A stretch of DNA of 64,000 nt from Eledone cirrhosa. Lineage: Eukaryota. The notes beneath the pieces were generated by a model. The model searched no databases. It was given only the letters and a program-made list of their open reading frames with translations, and was not told the DNA's origin. Shown in pieces: positions 3,404 through 59,989 of the stretch; within the stretch, counting starts at the first letter, position 1; the number at the start of each line of letters is the position of its first letter. The translations under genes were made by a program, and so were the position numbers. The DNA lies in contig OZ024743.1 in the NCBI GenBank assembly GCA_964016885.1, positions 283,216,001 to 283,280,000 of the forward strand, given 5' to 3'.

Positions 3404-3437
<34 letters not shown>

Positions 3438-3441
<4 letters not shown>

Positions 3442-4219
3442 TCATCATCATCATCATCAACGTTTAACGTCCGTGTTCCACGCTTGCATGGGTTTGGACG
3501 GGGGTTTTCCCACTTGAGGCAAGAGTGATTGTCTTGCTCGCATAGGACTGTCTGGTGGGTTTTCTACAGCTGGATGCCCTTCCTAACACCAACCACATTT
3601 ACAGTGTGGGGCTGGGAGGTTTTTACCGTGTTGCCAACACGGCCACATTACAGCGTGGACTGTCTGGCAGGTTTTCTACAGCTGGATGCCCTTCCTAACA
3701 CCAGCCACATTTATAGTGTGGGGCTGGGAGGTTTTTACCGTGTTGCCTACACGGCCACATTACAGAGTGGACTGTGTGTTTTTTTGTCGTGACACCTACA
3801 CGATCTGATTTGTTTCAGCCTGGATGTTGTGGCACCAACATAACTTTACATTGAAAGGGGCGGTGTGGATGGGGTGGGGGTGGTGGGACGGGGGTGTATT
3901 TTGTTAGAGATGCCTACTGACTGTAGTAGGTTTTACTTTGTATTTAGGTAAGGCGGGTCTTCTCTATTACTGAGTACCGCCAAAGGTCTCGGTCCAGTGA
4001 CATTGTCTTGGAGAGGTGTAAGTGTGTGAGGTCGGAATTTATCAGCTCGTCCCAGGTTTTTCTGGGTCTGCCTATTCCGTGGCTACCGTCTATCTTTATT
4101 GCCCTGCACTTTGTTATACAGCTATCGTCTTTCATGCGCATCACGAGACCATACCAACGTAGCCTTCTCTCGAGTAAACAACATCTGATCCCTCTTATTT
4201 CTAATTTTTTCCTTAGTTC

Positions 4220-4225
<6 letters not shown>
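3438..4225 (-). mobile_element. RTE LINE 3' fragment, left arm of a head-to-head pair
   Basis: Encodes ..[26 protein letters not shown]. Has the 3'UTR and a (GAT)n tail, and is near-identical to 14070-14747. Confidence 0.92.
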
Positions 4226-4268
<43 letters not shown>

Positions 4269-4322
4269 AACGAACTAAGGAAAAAATTAGAAATATATAT
4301 ATATATATATGGAGGCACATGG

Positions 4323-4371
<49 letters not shown>

Positions 4372-4377
<6 letters not shown>

Positions 4378-5119
4378 GCAGACTAGAGAGAAACGAAGCT
4401 TGCATGCTCCGCTGGATGTGTAATAGTAATATACGTGAACGACAAAGCATAAACGAACTAAGGAAAAAATTAGAAATAAGAGGGATCAGATGTTGTTTAC
4501 TCAAGAGAAGGCTACGTTGGTATGGTCACGTGATGCGCATGAAGGATGATAGCTGTATAACAAAGTGCAGGGCAATAAAGATAGACGGTAGCCACGGAAT
4601 AAGCAGACCCAGAAAAACCTGGGACGAGCTGATAAACTCCGACCTCACACACTTACACCTCACCAAGACAATGTCACTGGACCGAGACCTTTGGCGGTAC
4701 TCAGTAATAGAGAAGACCCGCCTTACCTAAATACAAAGTAAAACCTACTACAGTCAGTAGGCATCTCTAACAAAATACACCCCCGTCCCACCACCCCCAC
4801 CCCATCCACACCGACCCTTCTATGTAAAGTTATGTTGGTGCCACACCATCCAGGCCGAAACAAATGAGATCGTGTAGGTGTCACGACAAAAAAACACACA
4901 GTCCACGCTGTAATGTGGCCGTGTAAGCAACACGGTAAAAACCTCCCAGACCCATACTGTAAATGTGGTTGGTGTTAGGAAGGGCATCCAACTGTAGAAA
5001 ACCTGCCAGACAGTCCTATGCGAGCAAGACAACCACTCTTGCCTCAAGTGGGAAAACCCCCGTCCAAAGCCATGCAAGCGTGGAACACGGACGTTAAACG
5101 TTGATGATGATGATGATGA

Positions 5120-5123
<4 letters not shown>
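4372..5123 (+). mobile_element. RTE LINE 3' fragment, right arm of a head-to-head pair
   Basis: Encodes [27 protein letters not shown]. Same 3'UTR and (GAT)n tail as the long copy. Confidence 0.92.
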
Positions 5124-5161
<38 letters not shown>

Positions 5162-10575: not shown

Positions 10576-10719
10576 TATATATACGCACTCGTACACGTAC
10601 AACTCTATATACAACACGGTTTTTTTTTTCCCTTTTCAGATAGATGTGCTCCATCATCACCTTTTCAAAAAATGTATATCATACACAAAACGCCAGCATC
10701 AACAGTTATCCAAGAAATC

Positions 10720-10920
10720 TCAACATGAACGGCCCAGTTATTTTTTTCTGTTTCCGCCTTGCCTGTTTCCTCAATCTTTCTATTTCTTCTACCTTCTGAT
10801 AAAAGACTAGTGTCCAAAACTTTAAGACTCTTTTTCTACTATATCAAGTGGAAAACTAATAATATATTTCTTCATTGTACTGTGTTGTTTGCTTTGTTAT
10901 TTCTGTTTGCCTTTTGCACA
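10720..10920 (+). mobile_element. Decayed PLE pseudo-LTR remnant with degenerate hammerhead
   Basis: Homologous (inverted) to 14775-14990. Core mutated to CTGATAA..CAAAAC at 10792-10827. Confidence 0.55.
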
Positions 10921-10941
10921 CACACACACACACATATATAT

Positions 10942-11810
10942 ATAGCTTAAAATGGAATAAGAATAAGAAGAAAGCAAGAGCCTGGGGTGGGGGTGGGGGT
11001 GGGGGGAGTTGGGGAGGTTTCCTCATCAGTTGTCTACTGGGGTCTCGGATATTTCAACGCTTTAAAGACAAGATATCTACCCCCAGAGCATTCAATAACT
11101 GGGTAAGTTATTGGGAAAACGGAGGAGAGAGGGAAGGAAAATAGAAGGGAAAAGGGAAGAAAAGAGAAAACAGTGGAGAAAACAACAAACCGAGCAATGT
11201 GCGAGCAACTTAAGGTAAGAAAATCCAAGACCACAGCAATAACAGAACTTAAGTTCAAGAGCGTGTGACCAGTCTTCTCTCTCCTACTACCTACCTATTT
11301 CGTTACTATCTACTCTTACCCCTCTTTCTTCCTCTCCCTTTCTCCCTCTCACTTTCACTCATCCTTTCTCTGCTAGCCACCTCATTGTTTCCCTCACCTG
11401 ACCATCTAGCAGTCCTTTTCTCACTTACACTCACTGGGGTCAGACGTGTCTTTTCGTTCGCCCACACGCTCTTGAACTTAAGTTCTGTTATTGCTGTGGT
11501 CTTGGATTTTCTTACCTTAAGTTGCTCGCACATTGCTCGGTTTGTTGTTTCGCTGTTTTCTCTTTTCTTCCCTTATCCCTTCTATTTTCCTTCCCTCCCT
11601 CCTCTGTTTTCCCAATAACTTACCCAGTTATTGAACGCTCTGGGGGGTAGATATCTTGTCTTTAAAGCGTTGAAATATCCGAGACCCCCAGTAGACAACT
11701 GATGAGGAACCCCCCACCCCACCCACCCCACCCCCGGCTCTTGCTTTCTTCTTATTCTCATTCCATTTTAAGCTATCTTAACTAGCCAATCCTATTCTCC
11801 ATATATTTTA
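10942..11810. mobile_element. Fold-back insertion in (TA)n, probable PLE pseudo-LTR doublet
   Basis: Inverted arms 10942-11267 and 11463-11776 with a 195-bp spacer. The right arm has a short extension. (TA)n on both sides. Confidence 0.7.
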
Positions 11811-11884
11811 TATATATATATATATATAGGAAAATGTTTAACCCCGACGGCAGAGCTCAAGCCGTTTCGACGGATATTTCTGGA

Positions 11885-14745
11885 CTGACAATCACCTGAT
11901 CACCTATAGATCCGGGGAACACACAAGCCAGGTAGATTATATCCTTACCAGAAGACGTGACAGAGTGTCTGTTGTAAACACTAAATCCCTCCCCCATGAA
12001 GAATGCACCTCCCAACATAGACTGATAATTAGCGACCTCATAGTCAGGACGAGACGTACTCGACAGCAGAAGAGGACTATCCTCAGGAGAAAAATATGGA
12101 AGCTAAAGGACCCCACAGCCAGGAATAAATTTCAAAGCATATTACTTGATGCTTTCGACAGTAAGGAAGAACATTTAGAGTCGGACAATATAGAGGGAGA
12201 GTGGGAATTTCTGAAAGCAAACCTGCTGTTGGCGACAGACGAAGTCTGTGGCTGGAGCAGGCCTGTAGGCAGGAGGAGAGTAACATGGTGGTGGAACAGT
12301 AAGGTGGAGGGGTCAATTAAGGCCAAAAAGCAGGCTTGGAAAGTATGGCGGGATGGGGGAAGTAGAGAAGACTATCAAGTGGCCAGGAGGGAAGCTAGGA
12401 GACAGGTGTACTTAGCAAGAAGGGAAGCTGAGGAAAGAAAGTTCAAGCATGTTCTACAACGCGATGACCAAAAACGTGAGGTGTTCAGGATTGCTAGGCA
12501 ATGCGTCAAGGAAAACCGTGATATTGTCGGGGAGAAGTGTGTACTAAACGACGATGGCACACTTGCCATCACCGACGCTGATAAGAAGGTAGCTTGGAAG
12601 TGTCACTATGAAAGGCTACTAAATGAGGAGAATAAATGGGAGAAAGACAGTCTCCCCCATATCGACCCAATAGAGGGACCAGCAGTGTTAGTCGAGGGGA
12701 GTATAATAAGTAAGGCAATCAAGGATATGAAGACAGGTAAGGCGGCTGGGCCTTCGGAAATAGTTGCTGAGATGCTGAAGGCATCTGGCACGGTGGGACA
12801 CACCATGGTCACCCGCATAGTTAACCAAGTCGTACAGAATGGGGTTGTTCCGAAGGACTGGCATAGCAGCATCATCGTTAACTGTTATAAGGGTAAAGGA
12901 GACGCCCTAGATAGGAGTAACTATCGAGGCATTAAATTAATCGACCAGGTCATGAAGGTCACGGAAAAAGTAATAGCACAACTAATCAGAGAGAGAATTG
13001 ACCTAGATGAAATGCAGTTCGGGTTTGTGTCAGGCAAAAGTACCACAGACGCTCTTTTCATAGTACGACAACTACAGGAGAAGTACCTAGCTAAAGGTAA
13101 ACCCCTCTACTTAGCTTTTGTCGACTTGGAGAAAGCCTTCGACAGAGTCCCCCGCTCCATTATCTGGTGGGCTCTTAGAAAACTAGGCGTTGACGAATGG
13201 CTTGTGAGGGCTATACAAGCCATGTATAAAGAAACAGTCAGCAAGGTTAGAATTAACAACGAATATAGTGAAGAGTTTAGCGTAAAAGTTGGCGTCCATC
13301 AGGGCTCTGTTCTCAGCCCACTACTATTTATTATTGCCCTTCAGGCTATAACAGAGGAGTTCAAGACAGGCTGCCCATGGGGACTCCTATACGCAGACGA
13401 CCTGACACTCATAGCGGAATCAATGGCCGAGCTAGAGAAGAAATTCCAAACATGGAAGCACGGCCTAGAGTCAAAAGGACTTAAAATTAACCTGGCTAAG
13501 ACCAAAGTACTAGTTTGTAGGAAAGAAAACAAGGCGGCGGTCCCTTCTGGGAAATGGTCGTGCTCGGTGTGTAGGAAAGGCGTAGGTAGAAACTCCATTT
13601 TATGTCCTAAATGCAAAGTATGGATGCATAAAAGATGTAGTGGGATCACAGGTAAGCTAACTAAGAACATAGATTTTACATGTGGCCGGTGCTCTGGTGC
13701 AATAAGTAGCAGCAAGTGCCCACAAATACTAGCTCTTTCAATTGCGCAGAGGGTTCTATAGAAATAGTGGACAGCTTCCGTTACCTGGGCGATAAAATCA
13801 GCAGTGGGGGAGGGTGCTCTGAAAGTACTGTAGCTAGAGTCAGAACTGGTTGGAAAAAGTTCAGAGAGCTTATACCACTATTAGCTGCTAAAGGGTTCTC
13901 CCTAAAAATGAAAGGCAGGTTGTACAATGCCTGCATACGAACAGCAATGCTGCATGGCAGTGAGACCTGGGCATTGTGTGCAGAGGATATACGCAGACTA
14001 GAGAGGAACGAAGCTTGCATGCTCCGCTGGATGTGTAACAGTAATATACGTGAACAGCAAAGCATAAACGAACTAAGGAAAAAATTAGAGATAAGAGGGA
14101 TCAGATGTTGTTTACTCGAGAGAAGGCTACGTTGGTATGGACACGTGATGCGCATGAAAGTCGATAGCTGTATAACAAAGTGCAGGGCAATAAAGATAGA
14201 CGGTAGTCACGGAATAGGCAGACCTAGAAAAACCTGGGACGAGCTGATAAACTCCGACATCACACACTTACACCTCTCCAAGACAATGTCACTGGACCGA
14301 GACCTTTGGCGGTACTCAGTAACAGAGAAGACCCGCCTTACCTAAATATATAGTAAAACCTACTCCAGCCAGTAGGCATCTCTAACAAAATACACCCCGT
14401 CCCACCACCACCACCACCACCCCATCCACACCACCCCGTTCTATGTAAAGTTATGTTGGTGCCGCGCCATCGAGGCCGAAACAAATGAGATCGTGTAGGT
14501 GTCACGACAAAAAAACACACAGTCCACGCTGTAATGTGACCGTGTAGGCAACACGGTAAAAACCTCCCAGCCCCACACTGTAAATGTGGTTGGTGTTAGG
14601 AAGGGCATCCAACTGTAGAAAACCTGCCAGACAGTCCTATGCGAGCAAGACAATCACTCTTGCCTCAAGTGGGACTACCCCCGTCCAAACCCATGCAAGC
14701 GTGGAACACGGACGTTAAACGTTGATGATGATGATGATGATGATG

Positions 14746-14747
<2 letters not shown>
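11885..14747 (+). mobile_element. Young 5'-truncated RTE-clade LINE inserted in (TA)n
   Basis: APE C-terminus (ITYRSG..QVDYIL, SQH), RT, PHD finger, RTE C-terminus, about 400-bp 3'UTR and (GAT)n tail. Confidence 0.95.
11965..14345 (+). pseudogene. RTE ORF (RT + PHD) with one frameshift near 13720-13760
   Basis: NYRGIKL, QFGF, FVDLEKAFDRV, GVHQGSVLSPLLF, LLYADD, INLAKTK in 11965-13761. FRYLG, AMLHGSETW and RLRWYGHV in 13716-14345. Confidence 0.93.
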
Positions 14748-14776
<29 letters not shown>

Positions 14777-14860
14777 AAAGGTAAACAGAAATAACAACAC
14801 AATCGGTACAGTATATGGAAGGCATATATTAGGTTAATGCTTGATATAGCAGGAAGAGTG

Positions 14861-14896
14861 TCTTAACGTTTCGGACGCTAGTCCTTCATCAGAAGA
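14861..14896 (-). ncRNA. Minimal type I hammerhead ribozyme in a PLE pLTR remnant (14775-14990)
   Basis: UCUU-CUGAUGA-A-GGAC(UAGC)GUCC-GAAA-CG-UU-AAGA: stem I UCUU/AAGA, palindromic ACGU stem III. Confidence 0.7.
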
Positions 14897-15399
14897 AAGA
14901 ATGAGAAATAAAATAGATTGAGGGGACGGGCGGCGTGGAATTGGATAAAATGTCTTTAGATAAAAATAACAGATCCATTCATGTTGACATCTCATACATA
15001 TATATATATATGTGCATGTGTGTATGTGTGTGTGTGTGTGCATATGTGTGTGTGTGTGTGCATATGTGTGTGTATGTGTAGGTGTGTAAGTATGTGTGTA
15101 TACAGAGAGAGAGAGAGCAAAAGTAAGCCAAATCAATAAAGTGTACACACAAGAATTGACAGATGATTATTCCATCACTAATAATTTGCTATGTTTCTGT
15201 CAAAAATACAAAAATATTTAACACATTTACCTCAGCAGGCATTCAAGACAATACGTTTCTGTCATAACCTATTCCAGAAACCCATGTAAAATCACACACA
15301 GCCAATTTCCAAGGGTGTGTATATTCTTTCCCAGTACTCTACTGGCCTGAAAGCACACATATAATTACTGGAGTCTGTTTCTTTTAAAATTCATTTAAT

Positions 15400-25810: not shown

Positions 25811-26073
25811 TTGAGAAAACAACACCACACTTCAGCACTGAGCATATAAAAAAAAATTGAAATAACAGAGCTAAACTTTAATCCATCATTATATTTTTCT
25901 GTTTTTTCTGTTTAAATTCTAACTGTTGCATAATGGTTATCACCAAAATATATATAACAGCGAATATGAATAAACGAAGTTAATTTTAACCTGTTGACTT
26001 ACACTTCTTGTTTATATATATATATATATATACGATATTAAATAAATGGAAACTATATTTATAAAACCATATC

Positions 26074-26139
26074 TATTTCATTATATATATTTCAGGGATA
26101 TCATATTAAAAATATGTTATGCCTTCTTCAGACAAAATA
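26074..26139 (-). ncRNA. Type I hammerhead ribozyme, sense pLTR
   Basis: Exact mirror of 29034-29099. Confidence 0.7.
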
Positions 26140-26408
26140 CAATATAAACAGTCTTATAAATAGATAGATTTGACATACCTTTCAACTTCAACTTCGATTT
26201 AAAAAGTTGATTTGGTAGTGAAAAATATTAGGGACAGTTATAAAAAGAAAGAAAGAAAAAACGAAGAAAAAGAAGAAATGCATGCAACTAAATAGAGAGA
26301 GATATATATAGAGAGAGAGATATAGAGAGATAGATAGAGAGAAGAAATTCATGTAAAGAAACAGAGAGAGATATATATAGAGAGGAAAAAACACAGAGGG
26401 AGATAGAT

Positions 26409-26440
<32 letters not shown>

Positions 26441-27489
26441 AAATATAGAGAGATAGATATAGATAGAGATAGAGAGAAAGAAAATAGGTAGTTGGGCACC
26501 AGTTGAATGACGTATCAATGATACATTTATTTATTTATTTATTTATTTAGCTCTAGTATTAATGTAGAGAGAGATATATGTGGTTAGGAGAGAAAACAGC
26601 CGTTACATAGAGAGAAAAGAAAAATATCCAGACATAAACGAGGCAGATTTAAAACATTATGTTTCATCAATGTAAAAATATCAATTCGTATAAATCAGGC
26701 ATTATATTGTAAATATCAGTATTCATGAATGAGACACGTATCAATAATGTGTGAAAAATAATGATCATATGTCTAGTTTAAAATTCCTAGGTTTATATCA
26801 GAGTTGAGATAAAATAGAAGGTTATCCCAGATTCAATACTATAGACATCCATGTGAATTTACGTGATCAACTCTGCAAATTCCTATTTCACACGAAAACA
26901 TTCTCATTGTGCTATAAAAATTCTAGTATACATATATGTGTACATACACACAAATATATATAGAGTCTACATTAATTTTAACAATACTATTCTTGTCTTT
27001 ACTCTACATGATTATCGTTCAAGCATAAATAGAGAACAGATATAAATATATCAATAAAAATATCAGAAATAAAAAAATAAAAAAACAAAAAAACAAAAAA
27101 ATATTAAAAATAAAAATATTAAAAATATTAAAAATAAAAATAAAACATAGTATGCCCCGCAAATCATCCACAGAGATCAACCCATCAAAGTTAATTGACA
27201 ATATATTGCCAAGTTCGTTATAAGCATCAGAATCAACAGCAAACAAAACCAAAATTATTTACCAAATCCTGTCTAGCAGAAATCATTCCAAAAGTTTAGG
27301 ATACCCATTTGATCTACAGATGGTCTTATATTTAATATAGAAGTTTATCTAGTGTAAAATTTATTCGATATATTTGGAGCATCAGCTTTTAGGGTAGTTT
27401 AATTATTCACGAAGAATGTTTAAAATAAAAAAGAAATCGAAAGATTTATCGGCGAGTTTCATAAATAATTATAAATCAAATTAAATATA

Positions 27490-28785
27490 CTACATTTTAA
27501 ATTTATATTTATATTTAAAAGTTGAGTTCAATCTATGTCTGTAGCAACTGAATAAATTTGTCCGTAAATTAAGGGAATTTTTAGATTTTAGTATAAAGAA
27601 TATCTCCTCCGCGCAGAGGTCACATGTCTCAGAGGATGAATTAAAAGGAATCCCTCTTGAGACTATATTCCAAGCCGTCGAATATCCAACGTTATCATGC
27701 CTAAGTTGCCAGAGTAAGCCTGATAGTGATGTTGAAGATTTTTTGCTTGGATCTGTGAAAGAATTCTTGTGGTTATTATAGCGAAGTTTAAATTCCGTTT
27801 TAACATTACAGTTGTATATTATATTTTTAACTAAGCAATTGTTATTTAACGGACATTTAGATCTATCTCTACAGTTACATTTGTTTACTTGGATATTATT
27901 TATGCTATTATCGGTATTTTGGCTAGGTTTTAAATTCCTATTATTTATTCTATTAATATTTTGTGCTAAATTTTTGGTGGATGAGTAGGTTAATTTTATA
28001 GTATGTCTATTGAAAATTGAGTGATACCTATGTGTTCTAGGGAAGCGATTATCAAGAGCATTAAAAAATAGTTTAGCGATGTGGGTTTTAATGTTTAGTG
28101 AGAAAGGGGGGGGGGGGGCAAACCATATTATATTCCTAGTTCTATTTCTTTTTTGGCTTTTGGAATTATTGTAATGCTTTCTATTATAGTTGTTAAAGTT
28201 GTTGCCGTAATTAAAATTGTTGTTATTTTGGTTAGTTTGTCTATTATTATCTATGTACATAATTTTATCACTATATCCTGCTCTAGCTAACGCTTCATTG
28301 TAATACTGGGCTTTTTCGTCGAAAATCTTTTTATTAGATGAGATTCTAGAGATACGTTTTTGAACAGAGTTTACTATAGTATTTTTAACAGATCTGGGGT
28401 GGTTAGAGTTAAAGCTGACATAGTTTAAGTTTTCATTCAACTTGTGAAATGGATAGTGAAGACATGTGTTGAGATTTAATGTTACATCTAGGAAATTGAT
28501 TATTCTATGGTTATTCTCAATTTCTATTTTTAGATTAAAGTAATTAAAAAATTGTGTAATTTGTTTACATTTTCTATTTAGTTCAGAGTTATTATTTTCA
28601 ATAAGTAAAAGCATGTCATCTCTATATAAACCTCCGGTAGCACCGGGTATTTTCCTATGCAGCGAATTGATTAAAAATAGGCCCACGAGGTCAGTTACCT
28701 GAGCTGAGTCGGATGATCCCATAGTAATGTCGAAATTGTTATCTCTATCTGCTCTGGTCCATAGTTGGTCATTAAATTCTATCAA
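27490..28785 (-). pseudogene. PLE ORF remnant: RT C-half + CxC linker + GIY-YIG endonuclease
   Basis: FDITMGSSDSAQVTDLVG, GLYRDD, NFLDVTL, SNHP, CNCRDRSKCPLNNNC, FKLRYNNH and CDLCAEE. The N-terminus is cut by the inverted pLTR. Confidence 0.88.
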
Positions 28786-29033
28786 TGTTTTCCTATATAT
28801 CTCTCTCTGTTTCTTTACATGAATTTCTTCTCTCTATCTATCTCTCTATATCTATCTCTCTATATATATATCTCTCTCTATTTAGTTGCATGCATTTCTT
28901 CTTTTTCTTCGTTTTTTCTTTCTTTCTTTTTATAACTGTCCCTAATATTTTTCACTACCAAATCAACTTTTTAAATCGAAGTTGAAGTTGAAAGGTATGT
29001 CAAATCTATCTATTTATAAGACTGTTTATATTG

Positions 29034-29099
29034 TATTTTGTCTGAAGAAGGCATAACATATTTTTAATATGATATCCCTGAAATATATATAATGAAATA
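29034..29099 (+). ncRNA. Type I hammerhead ribozyme, inverted pLTR
   Basis: UAUUUUGU-CUGAAGA-AGG..CAUAU(UUUUA)AUAUG..CCU-GAAA-UAUAUA-UA-AUGAAAUA: 8-bp stem I with two G-U pairs and palindromic (AU)4 stem III. Confidence 0.7.
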
Positions 29100-30714
29100 G
29101 ATATGGTTTTATAAATATAGTTTCCATTTATTTAATATCGTAAATATACTCCAAATACTTGTTGAGTGCTTTTATATCAGTTATAAATATTTACTCGTTG
29201 TAACCCAACAATTTAAATAAAACTTTGCATATATATATATATATATATATTTGTTTAAATTTGGTGGTTTACCACTGGGTAGAATTGGTCATTCTGCAAT
29301 GTTAATCATGACGTAATATGAGAAAAACATTCGACATTGGTATACATCTATTATGCAATTTACACCTGAAGATGTCACCGACATAGTGCTTGTAGAAATA
29401 AATAATTAAGGAAATTCAACATATTTGGCCTCCTGTCATTTCACTTTATTATATATATATATTCTTCTACCAACTTATAGCAAGCAGTTAAATAAAATAT
29501 CTATTTAATCTACTTACTCTTCTATCTAGCTCATTCTGTAGATGTTTTTAAATTTAATCACAAAATTTAATCAGTATTTTACTTCAAAACAACAATTTAG
29601 TAATCAATCAAATTATATTAATACATCATAGTAGAAAAATGAAGTTAATACATAAAGTAAAATATTAACTAAATGCTATATAGTTTCTATAGTAATGTTT
29701 GAGCTAATATACTTAATACAGTGATGCAAATAGATATCTAATCAATCCTCATAGTGAGAAAAAAAAATATTAGCACCAATGACAAATCCTGTCAAGAAGG
29801 TAAAGAAGAGAACTCCAAAATTTGAAATGGTTTAGATAAGCCACAAAAGAACATTATATTATCTATTTTATTGCATTATACTTTTTACTTCAAATATTAC
29901 TGGAGCCTGAAATATTTTTTATTTCAACAGAGTTTCTTTACTGATAAGTCTAGAAGCTTGTATGGCACTGTAACAACTGATAGTCTCCCATTGGGCATGA
30001 CAGACCATGTGTTTATACATGGAAAGACCTTCTCCAAGGTGCAGGTCTTGGTAAGGTTTTTCTGTGAAAGACCAGCAATTATTCATGCATGCAAGTCTCT
30101 CTTCTCCACGTTATCATGGGAAAGGCAAATACTGATACAACTTAAATCTATTGATGTCGCTGGTGAACTCAGAATGCAAAGGACCAAAGGAAATATCACA
30201 AGGAATTATGTCTAACACTTTAACAATTCCACCAACCGACTACTCTGGAATAATAGTTTATTTATCAACACTGAAAGGATGAAAGGCGAAGTCAACCTTG
30301 GTAGGATTTGAATCAGATCACCATCATCATCACCATTATATGACTTGCATGGGTTAGATGGGTTGTCATACTCTGAGGCTAGACAGGCAGGTTAGACAAC
30401 TATGCCTTGCTCATAACTTCCATTTTTGCATGGTTTTTATGGCTGCATGCCCTTCCTAATGCCAACCACTTCCTGGTGTGTACTGGGTTCGTTTTCCCAT
30501 GGCACCACCACTACCATCTGACCAATGCCACAAAGCATTTTAACCCAATGCTCAAATAACTCTATTAATTCACGGCATATACTATAACTACGTATCACAT
30601 AATCTACAGCAACAAACATTGGAATTCATATGATCTAGGACAAGCATAGTGTGAAGGAATTGTACAAAAATATATTTGAATTATACATGGATATAAACAG
30701 AGACATTATAAGAG

Positions 30715-42490: not shown

Positions 42491-42493
<3 letters not shown>

Positions 42494-42690
42494 GGAAAAG
42501 AGTCAGGACCCTGACAGCTGAGCTCCAGCCATTTCAACAGCTAGATCCAAATTGGATCTAGCCTTCGAAATAGCCGGAGCTCAGCCATCGGGGTCCTGAC
42601 TCTTTTCCTATTACCCACTCTACTACCCTAAGTATCGAGTACTCTAGTGCATTATGGTCTAACTGGTTTCTTACCACACTTTCTTTGTTA
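42491..42690. mobile_element. Minimal fold-back (about 120-bp palindrome + tail) in (TA)n, PLE-pLTR-like
   Basis: Imperfect palindrome 42491-42611 centred on CCAA-A-TTGG, with a one-sided extension to (TA)n. Confidence 0.65.
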
Positions 42691-49325: not shown

Positions 49326-51013
49326 TAGAAGTAGTAACACAACAGTTAGTTCACCATACCGAGAACACTTGTTTCACCTTATGCAGGAAGAACAACCGTA
49401 TGAATGCACATGCGCAGAAACAGTCACTTCACCCAAGCGATACAAAACCACGGGCGAAAGGTGTAAGGGAGATAACTGCGAGTGTCCGGAATAAAATGTT
49501 CAAGTTGATTAGACAATTAGAATGTTGTTGTTATTCAATCCGGAGCTTTGTAGTTATGCAAGAGGTGCTTCCAGACATGTGGACAATGTGAGAAGATTTC
49601 ATTTCTTGAATTTAGGCAATCGCTATTGTGTAATCTCCTTAGAATATTTATCCTTTCTTCAATACACAGTCCACAAGATGGATTGCCCCTTGCATATGGC
49701 TTGGACTTAGTGATAGCTTTCCATTGAATGGAGTAGTCTATACCTGAGACCTTGAGGGACCACACATGGCTCGCGAGCTTTATGGATGATCATTTGTCCG
49801 GGTACTTAAAGGCCGACTGATGGTTCAGGAAGCGTTCCTTAAAACGGCCCTCCACTATACCCACATAGGATTTGACCTCCTGTGGTTGATTTGGTCGGTT
49901 GGAAGTGACCACAGCTTCATAAACTACAGTGGGTGTGTTGCAGTGCTGTTGAAGGGGACAAGCTTCAGGCTTACGGCAAGAGCATCCTGATGGGTTGCCG
50001 CTCTTAGGACTGTTGGTGATGTGGGCCTTCATATTCTTAGTGCATGAGTACCCTAGTTTTACTCTGTGTCTGTTAAAGAACGGAGCGGTATTTGTGACCT
50101 ATGGGAACGTGTCTATCTAAGAGGGTTAACAAATTTTTTCCTACATTAGTTTTAACGTTAAGTGAGAAGGGAGGAGAGAACCAGATAGTTTGTCTATTGT
50201 TACGATTTCTTTTCTTATTGCTGTTGTTGCTAGTTTGGGAGTAAGTAATTGGTTGCGAGAAACCGCTGTTAGCTAACACCGTGTTATAGTAGGGGGCCGC
50301 TCTGTCAAAGATAGCTTTATTAGGGGAGAAGTTAGAGATTCTAGTACTGATATTATTTACGATGTTTCTAAAACCAGTAGGAGGGTGGCATGAGTTCTTG
50401 TGTATGTAATTAAGTTTTTTGTTTAGCTTATGGAAGGGTCTGAAGGTATGTGTGCGAAGGTCTAAATTAATGTCTAAGAAATCTACGCCAGAGAGGTTGG
50501 TAGCTACCGTTATCCTAAGTCGTAACTCATTAAAAGTAGAAGTTAAATCTTTTTTAAACTGGTCCAGGTCGTGACCACTTTTATGGCTCGATAAGGTTAG
50601 ACCATTGTCGCGTAATATATCTAAAATAAATAAACCAACCAAGTCGCATGCCTACGTCAGCACTGTCGAACGATCCCATGGAGACGTCGGATAGTTCTGA
50701 AGCTCCGGATTGAATAACAACAACATTCTAATCAACTCGAACATTTTATTCCGGACATTCGCAGTTATCTCCCTTACACCTTTCGCCCGTGGTTTTGTAT
50801 CGCTTGGGTGAAGTGACCGTTTCTGCGCATGCGCGTTCATATGGTTTTTCCTCCTATTCCGTATAAACATTACCAGTCCGAGCTGAAGACCCGCATAAGG
50901 TGAAACAATTGTTTTCGATATGGTGAACTAACTGTTGTGTTACTACTTCTACCAAACTCATCCCATGGACTGAGTGCTCTACCACTACGGATATTACCTT
51001 CCAGTGTTTTACC
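49326..51013 (-). mobile_element. 5'-truncated Hydra-type PLE with inverted pLTR, in (TA)n/(TC)n
   Basis: Arms 49326-49548 and 50700-50951. Frameshifted ORF with DVSMGSFDSA, DFLDINL, CSCRKPEACPL, VVY..SYVG..FKERFLNH and CGLCIEE. Confidence 0.88.
50879..50917 (+). ncRNA. Minimal type I hammerhead-like motif
   Basis: CGAG-CUGAAGA-CCCGCAUAAGGU-GAAA-CAAUUG-UU-UUCG: palindromic ACAAUUGU stem III, weak stem II. Confidence 0.55.
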
Positions 51014-51643
51014 TCTCTCTCTCTATATATATATATAAGCAGAAGGGATATTCAATTTGTTGGTAATTCAACAAATATAAATGTTTATAACTGATTCAGA
51101 GTACTCGACAAATTTTCTGGAGTATAATATTCAATGATATTAAATAAATGGAAACTATATTTATAAAACCATATTTATTCTATTATATATAATACAAGGG
51201 TACCAAAAACTTTGGTACGCTTTCATCAGATAAAATACAAAGTGTGTTTTATAAATTTTGACATAGCCAAGGAACATACCTTAACGGTTGAAGTTTTCCT
51301 TAAGGTATGTTCCTTGGCTATGTCAAAATTTATAAAACACACTTTGTATTGTATCTGATGAAAGCGTACCAAAGTTTTTGGTAGCCTTGTAATATATATA
51401 ACAGAATAAATATGGTTTTATAAATATATTTCGTTTCTGAATTTGTTTAGCAAGATTCTTTATCTGAAATCGTGTGTTGAAACCGATATTGTTATACTTT
51501 GGGAGGGTCATGTTGCCAATAAGAAACACACGCACCAGTTGCTTTCACTTCAATTTATTATATATTTATAAATTTATAAATTTATAAATCTATAAATTTC
51601 TGGTTGGTTGGTTGGTTCCACAACCAGATAGTTGTTTATATAT

Positions 51644-51688
51644 AGTCATAGTTCTTTCGTCACACACTCTGTGACCTCTTCAGTGACT
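51644..51688 (-). ncRNA. Minimal type I hammerhead ribozyme, sense pLTR
   Basis: Mirror of 54337-54381. Confidence 0.7.
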
Positions 51689-51888
51689 GGGGATTCCTTT
51701 CTTTGTTTCTGTGCCTCTCCTTTGTTCTGTCCTACGCCATTTTGTTTCTGTGTGTGTGTTGTGTGCTCCGTCTGCGCATGCGCCACATCCGGGTGTCTGT
51801 GTGTGTTTATGTTCATTTATTTATTTGTTTATTTACATGTTACTGGTTGGTTGTTTGTTCTATGTGTGTGTGTGTTTTCATTTTGTCC

Positions 51889-54233
51889 TTAATTGTAAGT
51901 TGTGATGTTGCTGTTCCACTCATATTTTCTATTTAATTTTGGTTGTAATTCTTTTATGTTTATTGCCTCTGTAATTTGTCTAAACATTGCGTCTTTTCTC
52001 TGTGTAGATTCTATTTTTATTTCTATGTTCTCTAATTTACCCTTGTGTTCTATCTTAGCATGTTGGTAGAGTACAGATGATTATTTATTATCTTGAAGGT
52101 CTCGCCAGTGTTCATTTATCCGTTCCCCTACACTACGAGCTGTCTCACCTATGTACATTATATTTTTGTCTCTACATTGTCCTTCAGTACATCTTATGCT
52201 ATACACTACATTTCTAGTTTTACAGTTAATATGGGGGCTTATTTTACAGGTTATACATTTCTTATCTATACATGAGGGTCTTTGAAAAGGGTATGTCTTG
52301 CTAATAAGTGTTTTTACGGAGGTACCTGGTCTTTCTACTATCTTAATATTGAGTTTATGTTTATTTAGGGCCCTTCTAAATTTGTAAGCTAATTCACCTC
52401 TAGGGGTTGTATTGATGAACATTACACTCTGGTATTTATTGCTATCATACCATGAGTTTATTCTATTAGCCTTGTTCCTAGTTCTTTCTATTCTATTCCA
52501 AAATTTGCTCCTATACAAGGGGCAGGTCCCATTTATGTCATTATTTACCATTTTTTCCCATTTGGTTCTGGCTCCTCTATACACTCTGATTTTATCTCTC
52601 TGATTGTAGCCAGAGAACTGCATACGGTGGATGAAGTGTTGTATGTGTCTCTCTAGTTCTTCGGGGTTGCACATGCGGGACACATTTCTCATCACCCGTA
52701 CCAAATCCGCAATCAGTATGTTGATTTTGGTATGGTCCGAAATGGCCGAGTTTCGGTGGATCAGATGTTTGGAAGTCATGGGTTTGGCATAATGGGAATG
52801 GAGGATTTGTTTTTTGTTGTTAATGGTATCTAACCAGAGCTCTGTGTCTAGTACAGGTAATCGATGGTTGGGGTGTTTACTTGGGTAGTCTATAGTAACT
52901 CTAATGCTCTGGTGGATGGAGTTTGCTATTTGCTGGATGCTTTCCATTGTGTTTTTCTCTAGTTCCTGACTGTTCTCTAGTGGGGGTGTCTTAACTACGA
53001 TGTTTATATCATCTACGTAGCGGGAGTACATTATCAGGGTTAAGGGGTCTTCTAAATGTTCTTTAAGTTTAAGTTTAAGTCTACTGTCCCACCATACCAT
53101 GAATAAGTTAGCTATGTCGCCTGCAATGCTAACACCAATGGCTGATCCTTCCTCTTGGGTATATGTTTTTCCATTAAATTTGAACATATGTTCCTTAAGG
53201 GTTAGTTTTATGCTGGCCCCTACCGCATGTGCAATCATTTTCTTCAGTTCATCGTGGTTTTCGGGTGTCCGTATGGCTCTGGTCCACCCGTTCCATCTAT
53301 CTGTGTGGGTTTTCTTGGCCATTGAGGTAATGGTAGGTGGTCTGCCTCTTGCTGGTCTTGTAGGGCACAGGTTGCTAAGGTCATATGTGTCTAGGTAACT
53401 ATTACTATAGGTAAGCTTAAGTAAGAGTCCCAGCTCACTGGTATCAATCCCACGGAACTCAACCTTGCTCTCACTGATCATTTCTACGCATTTCTCCACA
53501 GCAAAATCCACGTCAATAGATGGATACAGGGACACAACATCCATACTGCCTATTATGCAGTTTGTTAGGTCCCCAGATCGGTTACTCACGCCGATTCTGC
53601 TGAGGAGGTCCTCCGTGCTGTCACATACATCTGGGGACATTTCAATGATGGGGCGTATGATCAGGGAGAGGAAGTAGGACAGTCTGTAGTTACTAGCAAT
53701 GTTAGCCCCACAGACTGGCCGTGTTGGTGGTCCCGCGACAGGGTCACAGCCCGTTTTATGGTCTTTTCGAAGCCCATACAACGCCGGCACGTCATTGTTC
53801 CAGGCCTGGAAGTTGTTGGCAGTCCTTTTGTTGGGCTGCATTATATTCGTCCACATCAGCATATGGGCATTGAGGGCTTTTTCTCTATCCTCATGCTCCT
53901 GTGGTGTTACCTCTCTTGTGTTAGTGATATGGGGTTGCATTGCCTGGATGTAGTTTGGCAGGCTGTCAACCGACATTCTGCCAGACTTGTCTGTTGGAAA
54001 GCATGCTATCTCTCCATTACGTGAGCGCTGCATGAGCTTACGCAAGCCATTTGCAGATTTTTCTCCCAGTTGCTGGGCCTCCATTCTATTATGCTTCTTG
54101 CTATACTGTTCTATAATATTTCTAAGTTCGGATCTAGCTATACTAAATTGTGCTTCAGTTTGTTCATCGACCTGCGACGGCAATTGCGTGCGTTTGTTAA
54201 ATGGTAAAGTCGTGGCGTGGACTCGTCGCAGGT
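51889..54233 (-). pseudogene. PLE RT + GIY-YIG ORF, 5'-truncated, with one in-frame TAA at 52081-52083
   Basis: PTDKSG, LYGLRKDHK, PTRPV, SMDVVSLYPSI, G.AIG, RYVDD, LPVLD and NVVYSIRC..YIGETARS..R..EH. The frame continues past the TAA (YQHAKIEH..RQITEA..LNRKYEW) to a stop at 51889. Confidence 0.92.
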
Positions 54234-54336
54234 CGGATGTGGCGCATGCGCAGACGGAGCACACAACACACACACAGAAACAAAATGGCGTAGGACAGAA
54301 CAAAGGAGAGGCACAGAAACAAAGAAAGGAATCCCC

Positions 54337-54381
54337 AGTCACTGAAGAGGTCACAGAGTGTGTGACGAAAGAACTATGACT
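54337..54381 (+). ncRNA. Minimal type I hammerhead ribozyme, inverted pLTR
   Basis: AGUCA-CUGAAGA-G-GUCACA(GAGUG)UGUGAC-GAAA-GAAC-UA-UGACU. Confidence 0.7.
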
Positions 54382-54557
54382 ATATATAAACAACTATCTG
54401 GTTGTGGAACCAACCAACCAACCAGAAATTTATAGATTTATAAATTTATAAATTTATAAATATATAATAAATTGAAGTGAAAGCAACTGGTGCGTGTGTT
54501 TCTTATTGGCAACATGACCCTCCCAATTTATAAATATAGTTTCCATTTATTTAATAT

Positions 54558-57510: not shown

Positions 57511-59642
57511 CCACCACCACCACCACCACTACCACCACCATCATTATCATTATCATTTAATGTCTGTTTTTCTTGCTAGCAAGGGTTAATCTGGTTATCA
57601 GTGACCCAGTCAATTCCTGGCTTGAGTCACTGACTTTCCAGATGGGCCAAAGGAGTACATCTTGCTTACATATGTTCACATATTATACAGAGTGTACTCA
57701 GTGTATTTTATTGTTGCATCAAGCATTAAAGAGGTTGTTATGCCTTTGAGCATTTGTTTGGTGAGTTTTCTATGACTGGATGCTCTTCTTATTAACAAAC
57801 ACTTTATAGAGTGTATTGTATGCCTTTTACAGTGGCCTAGCAGTAGAGAAGTTATTAGGTCCTTAACACAACTGAAGAGTCCTTGCAACCTTTTTTTTTA
57901 GTTCTGTATATTAAATAGAAATATGGGAGGGTCACACATTTTTGATTTTAAAAAATTCTATCAACTAAGAATATCCAAACAATTGGTTGTCAAAAGTTCC
58001 CTTTGGGGATGTTTATAATTTAAAAACAAGAAGAGAAATCTATTCTATTCTGCATTGTTTAAATTATTAATTTGTTCTGTCTGTCTGCACACTGAATTCA
58101 AATCCTACCAAAGTCAACTTTGCTTTTTATCTTTCAAAGTCAATAAGTAAAGTACCAGTTCAGGAACAGTGGATTGGTAGAATTGTTAATGCATCAGAGG
58201 AAATGTTTTACACTTTCTGTTCTGGATCTGTATGTTTGCAGTTCAAATCCCACTCCTATCACCAGAAAAACAGTAGTACTTCTACCAGGAGTTGCAACTG
58301 ACAGATGTCAGCAATGGAAAGAGCAATAGAAACAGTTTATTTTGTCTCATCTGAGGATTGGCCTTTTCCTACCTATATTATTAAAAAGTTCTGATCAACT
58401 GATCCTATTGGAGTTATATCCCTTGTTCATTGTTTTTTTTTATGTTAAACATCCCTAGAAGGACTTTTGTCTACTAATTGTTTGACTAAAGATTTTCAAA
58501 ACACATATGTTAATATATGTTAACATACGATAATTGAACTCTGGTAGTTTGATACCAGTAGAGAAGTAGAAAGTTTGAGAGTGTTGCAGTTCAGGGGAAG
58601 AAATATTGACGACAGTATTTAGTATAGCAAAGTCTGGGAGTAAGACACAACAAAGTGGTGAGAGAGGGGACACATTGTAGGACCAAATAATCATTATCAT
58701 TTTATGCCCACTTTCCATGCTAGCAAGGGTTGGGTGAGTTGTCCCAGTCTGAGACTAGACAGGTCGGGAAAGCATGTCTTGCCTATACATTCCATGCAAT
58801 AGGACTAAGTAATAATTTTAAAAACATTAATTGAAAGCTAGTTTATACAGTTATAAAGAAAACTGTAAATCTCCCATGAGAACACACTGAAAGTAACATC
58901 TAAACAGAAAAGATGACTTAACTGCTTAATGCTACAGAAACAAGCAATTATATTAAATTATTGTGTATGCAAGATGATTGAAGATTATGTAGTTGAGTTT
59001 ATGATTGACTCAAATCTCTTGACGAATTTCTTTTTATCTCATTTGGGAAATGTAATATTAAATTCTCTATGTTTACAGGACATTTCTTCTAACCGTGTCT
59101 GATATTTTCCCCAAGATGCTATATTTTTTACTGTTTTATCTGATACTTGTATTTATTATGTCTAAAAGAAAAGAAACAAGTATTTGTTTACTGGCTTTTA
59201 AATATTAGGTGGCAAATTAGAACATCAGGTTGAATGCTTTGTTGTGTTTGTTCTGGCATGCTGCACACCTAGTTCAAATCCCATTGAGGTCAACTTTGGT
59301 TTTTAAATCCTTTCAAGTTCAATAAATAAAGTACCACTCAAGTACTGGGGTCGATCACTCTGTCTGTCTCTCTGTCTCTTTCTCAGAAGAAGACAAAATC
59401 AGCTGTGCTCTGACCTGGAAAGCAATGGGCTCTCCCAGGCTTAAGTCATATAGCCAGGCTCTAGTCATATATCATAACAGTACCCCTACAACTCTATCAG
59501 GAGTTCAGGATCCCAGTTCTTCACATATCAAATAGGTGTATGTATGGCTGTGTGATTAAATAGCTTGCTTGGCAACCATATCATTCTGAACTCCATTCTA
59601 CCTGGCAACATCTTGAACCAGTATTGCTTACTATCTTGGGTC

Positions 59643-59770
59643 GACCAATACCTTGGCTTGACCAATGTCTTGGGTTGACCAATACTATGGCTTGATCAAT
59701 ATCTTGGGTCAACCAATACCTTGGATAGACCAATACCTTGGCTTGACCAATACCTTCGCTTGACCAATAA
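59643..59770. repeat. 17-bp minisatellite (GACCAATACCTTGGCTT consensus), about 7.5 units
   Basis: Unit starts at 59643, 59660, 59677, 59694, 59711, 59728, 59745 and 59762. Confidence 0.9.
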
Positions 59771-59989
59771 CTTGTAAGTAGAATTTGGTTGATGAAAGTG
59801 CTGCAATGATTCATAGTATAAATGTGTATATATGTGTCCAACCCTTGTGATCAGGGAAAGCAGACATTAAAACAATGATGATGAGGAAGATGTGTCTGTA
59901 TCTGTGTCTATATCTCTGTTTACAGTGGTCTCTTCTAAAAACTAGTGTTGTTATTCATTATGTTCTGTAACTTCTTAGCTTGACAGATA

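What the first reader, a model, noticed from the sequence alone, without database searches (positions are those of the whole stretch)
11826..11884. RTE LINE capped at its 5' end by an inverted PLE-type pLTR fragment
Seen: the ~58 nt between (TA)n and the RTE APE sequence (ATAGGAAAA..CCCCGACGGCAGAGCTCAAGCCGTTTCGAC) are not RTE coding sequence. They align with the left arm of the 42491 palindrome (ATAGGAAAA..CCCTGACAGCTGAGCTCCAGCCATTTCAAC) and have the same (TA)n|GGAAAA junction. No matching second arm follows the LINE. Inference: a chimeric integration in which a PLE-derived cDNA primed from one side of a TA break was joined to an RTE cDNA from the other side, mimicking the inverted-pLTR geometry.
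Basis: partly seen in the sequence, partly recalled or inferred. Interest (0 to 1): 0.75.

Follow-up and report, generated by a model that had tools for sequence, protein, structure and literature searches.

The report
Young LINE nested into Penelope stub
A 61-base leftover end of one jumping gene is joined back-to-back to a roughly ten-times younger jumping gene of another class, most likely because the second landed later in the same TA repeat and erased the bases between them, which makes this an ordinary pile-up and probably not a two-element co-insertion.

Summary
Bases 11826-11886 are not RTE. They are the tail-less inverted arm of an abundant, TA-targeting Penelope-like family with Hydra-clade motifs (at least 5,083 such arms in the genome). 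The arm ends at that family's commonest stop (61 nt) and joins a 5'-truncated RTE through one shared T. The 42491 palindrome is a 74%-similar sister family, not the source. The co-integration reading is weakly supported. The cap's subfamily carries about 3% private changes, this RTE copy 0.28%. Of 74 loci with such an arm upstream of this RTE family, 68 keep TA or other DNA between them. Nine are lone arms followed by TA and then RTE, the expected precursor. Six are joined directly, at points from the outer edge to the centre, and one (L257) repeats this geometry exactly. None of 84 RTE 5' ends carries such a cap. Sequential nesting with loss of the intervening DNA is the best reading (0.7). 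Cross-class dual priming is not excluded (0.2). No pre-insertion allele could be read.

The parts
11826..11886 (-). Cap: tail-less terminal arm of Penelope-like family F (element sense on the minus strand); ends at the family's commonest stop; one private substitution at 11874
11810..11827 (.). (AT)n array at the left joint, overlapping the arm's first bases
11886..14722 (+). 5'-truncated RTE-type LINE: end of the APE region, RT (RVT_1) and PHD finger, one frameshift near 13720, 3' UTR; 8 private changes in 2,837 nt
14723..14773 (+). RTE (GAT)n tail running into (AT)n; normal 3' joint for this family
10942..11802 (.). Separate older element with the same layout (inverted arms 92% alike, one-sided tail) in the same TA pile-up; PLE-like by layout only
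14774..14931 (-). Another repeat end facing the same TA array; 74% like 10761-10944 on the other side; PLE-like by recalled motif only
42491..42690 (.). Palindrome plus tail of a sister family of F (arms 74% like the cap, tail side 80-83% like F loci); comparison locus, not the source

Best explanation
The cap is a pre-existing stub of a TA-targeting Penelope-like element, and the RTE most likely inserted later into the TA repeat just to its right, its 5' end joining back to the stub through one shared T and removing what lay between. Shown: the arm's identity, its stop at the family's modal 61 nt, the RTE start at 11886, the shared T, the normal (GAT)n(AT)n 3' joint, and the divergence gap. 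Inferred step 1: the PLE left either a lone arm flanked by TA, or a two-armed palindrome. The fixed stop probably marks reverse transcriptase running off the RNA's 5' end after internal priming. Inferred step 2: the RTE primed on the TA array by ordinary target-primed reverse transcription, stopped early, and end-joining consumed the TA (lone-arm route) or the TA plus tail and second arm, about 135 nt (deletion route).
For: Age: tails of 21 copies of the cap's own subfamily, chosen for a perfect arm and so biased young, carry 46 singleton changes in 1,512 nt (3.0%; 45 outside CpG). None of 23 elements was free of mismatches in its unselected tail/partner arm (100 in 2,367 nt). The window RTE has 8 private changes in 2,837 nt (0.28%). 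The cap itself has one change not found in any other exact copy (1 against 114 copies). Shared target: 68 of 74 distinct loci with an antisense F arm within 450 nt upstream of an RTE motif keep TA or other DNA between them. Precursor exists: lone arm + TA + RTE in 9 of 74 (L351 stops at the same CTGGAC); lone arms are 4 of 71 unbiased arms. Loss of all TA happens: L165, L217 and L226 join the RTE 5' end at the outer edge of a complete F; L227 and L241 join inside the second arm. No enrichment: 0 of 71 F arms and 0 of 84 scored RTE 5' ends show the cap; the joint is single-copy.
Against: The joint falls exactly on the modal stop, which the deletion route would hit only by chance or through a break at the palindrome centre. 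No RTE joint fell inside the 75-nt tail, the part nearest the TA, in about 30 loci where the tail faces the RTE (read by eye). Direct joints are 2 of 14 single-arm loci (L257, L225) against 4 of 60 two-armed ones, a mild excess (P about 0.26 for one event, about 0.05 for two, using only the edge rate). The one change in the 61-nt cap cannot date it (likelihood 0.13 young against 0.29-0.36 old). Up to about 17% of F copies could be as young as the RTE (95% bound). No pre-insertion allele was seen.
Confidence: 0.7

Rival explanations
1. Cross-class dual priming, the first reader's model: one break in a TA repeat, the left end extended by the PLE enzyme on PLE RNA to run-off, the right end extended by the RTE enzyme on RTE RNA, and the two cDNAs joined head-to-head.
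For: The geometry fits: the arm is in the tail-less, antisense form that normally partners a second cDNA, and it stops at the modal site. An independent twin exists (L257: sister-subfamily arm stopping at the same site, one extra base, then RTE), as do head-to-head direct joints of tailed arms (L225 to this RTE; L238 to another RTE family). A PLE protein cuts and extends both strands in vitro (PMC11167929). Antisense RNA/L1 chimeras are attributed to twin priming (PMC13174262), and dual priming was proposed in PMC2837659.
Against: About tenfold age gap between the cap's subfamily and this RTE copy. Rare: 1 of 74 F-RTE neighbours, 0 of 84 RTE 5' ends, 0 of 71 arms, and none at the stop site among the 100 of 167 matches listed for the second RTE family (first 80 nt seen). 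The count is compatible with the sequential route. It needs two unrelated ribonucleoproteins at one break.
Confidence: 0.2
2. Break repair at a palindrome: a complete F palindrome broke at its centre (cruciform or hairpin cleavage), lost its right half up to the TA array, and the RTE cDNA patched the break.
For: These near-perfect palindromes fold very stably (sister element -50.3 kcal/mol, z -14). Direct joints cluster in the arms and centre, not in the tail (L227, L241, L257, window). It explains both the age gap and the joint position.
Against: The RTE 3' joint is the ordinary (GAT)n(AT)n type, so no unusual priming is needed. Lone arms already give the same end point without a new break.
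Confidence: 0.08
3. Assembly artefact, or a later deletion or recombination that fused two neighbouring insertions.
For: No contig or read in runs X4-X6 and X8 bridged the joint. Only one assembly shows it.
Against: Those runs appear to be other individuals or a relative (share of words 0.45-0.57 for X4-X6) and holes there prove nothing. The breakpoint sits on a biologically defined site, and an independent locus has the same form (L257).
Confidence: 0.02

Closest known systems
EN+ Penelope-like element insertion unit with an inverted 5'-truncated pLTR and one-sided tail; Hydra clade (PMC8557442, passages and section 11 read; PMC3846280, passages read)
   Same: Tail-less inverted arm at a (TA)n joint; family copies are head-to-head pairs with a tail on one side; C-terminal GIY-YIG-like domain with CxCX5C, CxxC and CxH motifs; TA targeting.
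   Different: The tail is about 75 nt, not 30-40. No hammerhead was found by Rfam in the 3' 1.5 kb. At this locus the tailed partner is missing and an RTE stands in its place.
Two internal reverse-transcription start sites of the anole Poseidon element PAc (PMC11167929, parts 1-2 of 4 read)
   Same: Two fixed start points separated by the tail explain tailed and tail-less arms; both strands are cut and extended.
   Different: Shown in vitro for one Poseidon-clade protein on its own RNA; the parts read report no partner LINE.
Twin/dual-priming LINE chimeras: antisense 5S, U5 and tRNA-half/L1 chimeras (PMC13174262, passages read); dual priming (PMC2837659, abstract and section 11 read); two L1 cDNAs joined at 5' breakpoints in tumours (10.1101/2024.08.27.596794, passages read)
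   Same: A short foreign piece in the opposite orientation at the 5' end of a truncated LINE, with little or no microhomology.
   Different: Those cases are supported by a shared target-site duplication or joint presence across species. Here TA hides any duplication, the ages differ, and the 5' piece has its own insertion machinery and thousands of independent copies.
RTE-clade LINEs with microsatellite tails, e.g. RTE-2_OV (PMC9115989, passages read; PMC6007223, abstract only)
   Same: APE-RT order, microsatellite 3' end, many young truncated copies.
   Different: Identity with RTE-2_OV was not tested; this family has a 3' UTR of about 380 nt before the (GAT)n tail.

Membership tests
EN+ PLE, Hydra clade (source family of the cap) | PLE-type RT followed by a C-terminal GIY-YIG endonuclease | tested here: inconclusive
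   L337 holds RT-like then EN-like frames; Pfam GIY-YIG E 0.069, below the cut-off, and no RT family hit; 39% identical over 280 aa to the window's ORF at 27490-28833. RT motifs were read by eye.
EN+ PLE, Hydra clade (source family of the cap) | CxCX5C linker; CxxC and CxH beside the conserved E and N; CCHH absent | tested here: met
   CNCPDRSTC, CNLC-SEE and N...CKH in L061/L337, against the definition in PMC8557442 section 11.
EN+ PLE, Hydra clade (source family of the cap) | Insertion into (TA)n | tested here: met
   5,083 exact TA-preceded arms (the pattern itself required the TA start); tails end in (TA)n in the loci read.
EN+ PLE, Hydra clade (source family of the cap) | Inverted truncated terminal copy with a one-sided tail | tested here: met
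   Most of 71 arms are joined head-to-head to a tailed arm or tail piece.
EN+ PLE, Hydra clade (source family of the cap) | Tail of 30-40 bp | tested here: not met
   The tail is about 75 nt; 30-40 bp is described as typical in PMC8557442.
EN+ PLE, Hydra clade (source family of the cap) | Canonical hammerhead ribozyme in the pLTR | tested here: inconclusive
   No hammerhead family in the Rfam scan of L061, L010, L063 and L001; no full-length copy was scanned.
EN+ PLE, Hydra clade (source family of the cap) | RWK and DKT motifs, partial-tandem pLTR upstream of a full ORF, phylogenetic placement | not tested
   The longest copy fetched (L337) is 5'-truncated; no tree was built.
RTE-clade LINE | APE-RT ORF and microsatellite 3' tail | tested here: met
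   RVT_1 E 1.8e-32 plus PHD; end of the APE region read by eye; (GAT)n tail. Clade placement by tree was not tested.
Twin/dual-priming chimeric insertion | 5' segment in opposite orientation to the LINE | tested here: met
   The F ORF lies on the strand opposite to the RTE.
Twin/dual-priming chimeric insertion | One target-site duplication around both parts | not testable with these tools
   Both outer joints are (AT)n arrays.
Twin/dual-priming chimeric insertion | Both parts of the same age | tested here: not met
   Subfamily level 3.0% against 0.28%; the 61-nt cap alone cannot be dated.
Twin/dual-priming chimeric insertion | Joint presence or absence across alleles or species | tested here: inconclusive
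   Runs laid neither bridge the joint nor show an alternative allele.
Twin/dual-priming chimeric insertion | Recurrence above what nesting predicts | tested here: inconclusive
   1 exact twin in 74 loci against about 0.3 expected; too few to separate.

The most novel reading that the evidence does not exclude
A Penelope-like element and an RTE LINE can each prime from one end of the same broken TA repeat and be joined into one insertion. The window locus, L257, L225 and L238 would be natural records of co-integration between two retroelement classes, showing that each PLE arm is made independently and can be resolved with any cDNA.
Probability: 0.2. Interest if true: 0.6.

Novelty: already known. 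Interest (0 to 1): 0.22.

Why it matters
On the best reading it is a caution: where several retroelements share a microsatellite target, nesting plus 5' end-joining produces clean head-to-head joints that look like twin-priming chimeras, so geometry alone is not evidence. If the co-integration reading were true, it would be in vivo support that the two arms of PLE insertions come from independent priming events at the two ends of a break, and would extend dual priming across element classes. The handful of direct-joint loci found here make that testable by genotyping.

Tried and rejected
Cap as the RTE's own upstream sequence: rejected (29 of 29 copies differ). The 42491 family as the source: rejected (74% against 93-100% matches elsewhere). 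The chimera as a propagating unit: rejected (joint single-copy). MITE or DNA-transposon ends: rejected, because arms are asymmetric (one-sided tail), centres differ from copy to copy, and long copies run into an RT/GIY-YIG-like ORF. Hammerhead in the cap or nearby: Rfam gave only hairpin look-alikes below their cut-offs. Cap-derived extra base at the arm's stop: counts after CTGGACT were C 19, G 18, A 23, T 4, templated 14; inconclusive, and the two tallies printed there mirror each other. One search had an off-by-two motif that missed loci and was redone. The 'RTE inversion' class was an artefact of a TA run in the reference and was not used. Literature: five answered searches listed no PLE-LINE co-integration; subscription journals and supplements were not seen, so this is not proof of absence.

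Full report
Observation. The window reads (AT)n, then ATAGGAAAA...TTCTGGACT (11826-11886), then RTE sequence to 14722, (GAT)n and (AT)n. Twenty-nine of 29 other RTE copies that match the first 265 RTE bases continue upstream with ordinary APE-coding sequence, so RTE homology begins at 11886 and the cap is foreign. The T at 11886 belongs to both parts. The match to the 42491 palindrome is real: 73.6% over 53 nt, score 47 against a 99th percentile of 20 in 3,654 window segments. No second arm follows the LINE.

Source of the cap. A genome search gave 57 matches; the 40 best are 94-100% identical. A 33-place pattern for the TA-preceded arm has 5,083 exact hits. Long copies run, on the opposite strand, into a frame with RT-like motifs and then an endonuclease-like frame with CxCX5C, CxxC and CxH. 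These motifs and TA targeting define the Hydra clade of Penelope-like elements in PMC8557442 (section 11). Pfam support is weak (GIY-YIG E 0.069) and no tree was built, so the clade call rests on motifs. I call the family F. The 42491 element is a sister family.

Normal F anatomy. I took the first 70 of the 100 listed places (71 arms). In most, the tail-less arm is joined head-to-head to a sense arm carrying a tail of about 75 nt and then (TA)n. 54 of 71 arms stop at 53-64 nt, and 61 nt is the commonest stop (14 of 71, counting seven scored as 68 through a chance extension). The window arm stops at 61. Four of 71 are lone arms followed by TA or an A-run; none is joined to an RTE 5' end. This layout is the known inverted pLTR with a one-sided tail (PMC3846280, PMC8557442; passages). 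Two internal start sites separated by the tail were shown in vitro for an anole PLE (PMC11167929, parts 1-2 of 4).

The RTE. RVT_1 and PHD are present. A 35-mer of its 3' UTR has 15,971 exact hits. I fetched DNA for 99 of the first 100 listed places. The script found 96 3' ends; 8 were duplicates and 4 ran to the edge of the fetched DNA, leaving 84, of which 25 lie in a satellite. Most others have TA or CA repeats at the 5' joint. None has an antisense F arm there. One, L165, is joined directly to the outer edge of a complete F palindrome through CTA with all TA lost. The window's joint is single-copy.

F next to RTE, genome-wide. Gapped patterns found every place with an exact 14-mer of the antisense arm within 450 nt upstream of one of three RTE motifs: 65, 9 and 1 places, 74 distinct after one duplicate. 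All were read (automatic classes corrected by eye). Sixty have both arms or arm plus tail: 56 keep TA or other DNA before the RTE, two are joined at the outer edge (L217, L226) and two inside the second arm (L227, L241). Fourteen have one arm: nine are followed by TA and then RTE, three by other DNA, and two are joined directly (L257, an exact twin of the window's geometry, and L225, a long tailed copy). With an edge-joining rate near 3-4% and about ten lone arms, about 0.3 direct caps are expected; the chance of one or more is 0.26, and of two or more about 0.05. For a second RTE family, 167 places were found and 100 listed with their first 80 nt. About a dozen are lone arms plus repeat, two are direct joints (one at 48 nt, one inside the second arm), and none is at the modal stop; of the 30 fetched, one more is joined near the edge without TA. 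Exact-match patterns miss diverged copies, and RTE copies truncated upstream of about 13350 were not covered.

Age. The cap's 59-mer is unique, while the version with the family base at 11874 has 114 exact copies. In 30 of those 114, already selected for a perfect arm, the unselected tail and partner arm differ at 100 of 2,367 sites, and none of 23 scorable elements has zero mismatches. Singleton changes alone are 46 of 1,512 tail sites in 21 copies (3.0%), 45 outside CpG; three tails have no singleton, about what Poisson scatter gives. The window RTE has 8 private changes in 2,837 nt (0.28%). So the cap's subfamily looks about ten times older. Limits: the cap is too short to date by itself, up to about 17% of F copies could be young, and error rates of the two enzymes may differ.

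Alleles. Three contig sets from one sample held 0.45-0.57 of the words. Laying them and two reduced-representation runs showed no piece bridging the joint and no assignable alternative allele. This is uninformative.

Mechanism. Most likely (0.7): F inserted first and left a lone arm or a palindrome in TA. The RTE later primed on the TA to the right, truncated, and its 5' end was joined at the T that ends the arm. Every intermediate exists in the genome and the ages differ. Against this, the joint sits exactly on the modal stop, no joint fell within the tail in about 30 tail-facing loci, and single-arm loci show a slight excess of direct joints. Rival (0.2): dual priming by two different elements at one break, as proposed for L1 (PMC2837659, section 11) and inferred for antisense RNA/L1 chimeras (PMC13174262, passages) and for paired L1 cDNAs in tumours (10.1101/2024.08.27.596794, passages). 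Minor rivals are RTE patching of a break at a palindrome centre (0.08) and artefact (0.02).

Verdict. The feature is real and its parts are known kinds. Five answered paper searches listed no PLE-LINE co-integration, so that reading would be new, but the evidence here leans to ordinary nesting in a shared target. That the genome is from an octopus-like animal is my guess and was not tested. Interest 0.22.

Noticed in passing
L257 (G000:C21:6688333-6688545, minus): Independent exact twin of the finding: TA, tail-less arm of a sister subfamily stopping at the same site, one extra base, then a 186-nt RTE 3' piece.
   Followed up: partly
L165 (G000:C1:3666580-3671880): RTE 5' end joined to the tail-less outer edge of a complete F palindrome through a shared CTA, with all TA gone.
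   Followed up: yes
L225; L238; G000:C4:149265756-149265832: F arms joined directly to RTE 5' ends: a 250-nt tailed antisense copy to this RTE family; a 48-nt tailed arm and a partial second arm to another RTE family.
   Followed up: partly
window 3408-5160: Two RTE 3' pieces head-to-head with rearranged (TA)n, RTE and short repeat fragments between them; TA-mediated, not a clean inversion.
   Followed up: partly
window 10761-14931: Five repeats stacked around one TA/CA array: two older repeat ends facing inward, a PLE-like palindrome with tail, the cap and the RTE.
   Followed up: partly
window 26025-29148, 49385-50855, 51487-54538: Three further ORF-bearing elements framed by inverted repeats; the first is 39% identical to the cap family's protein; Pfam gave no hit for the two ORFs tested.
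   Followed up: partly
L014, L019, L121: F palindromes with 60-150 nt of unrelated or microsatellite DNA between the arms.
   Followed up: no
L183-L210 (G000:C1:7.3-9.2 Mb): 25 sampled RTE copies sit in a roughly 17-nt satellite array, nearly all on one strand; a similar 17-nt repeat lies at window 59635-59774 (not compared).
   Followed up: no
window 14860-14900 (minus) and 11698-11710: CTGATGA cores that resemble hammerhead ribozymes (recalled motif); Rfam gave no hammerhead hit for 10600-15000.
   Followed up: partly
L339: A long, nearly open non-LTR ORF set (RT-like frame followed by a CCHC-type frame, read by eye) beside an F copy.
   Followed up: no
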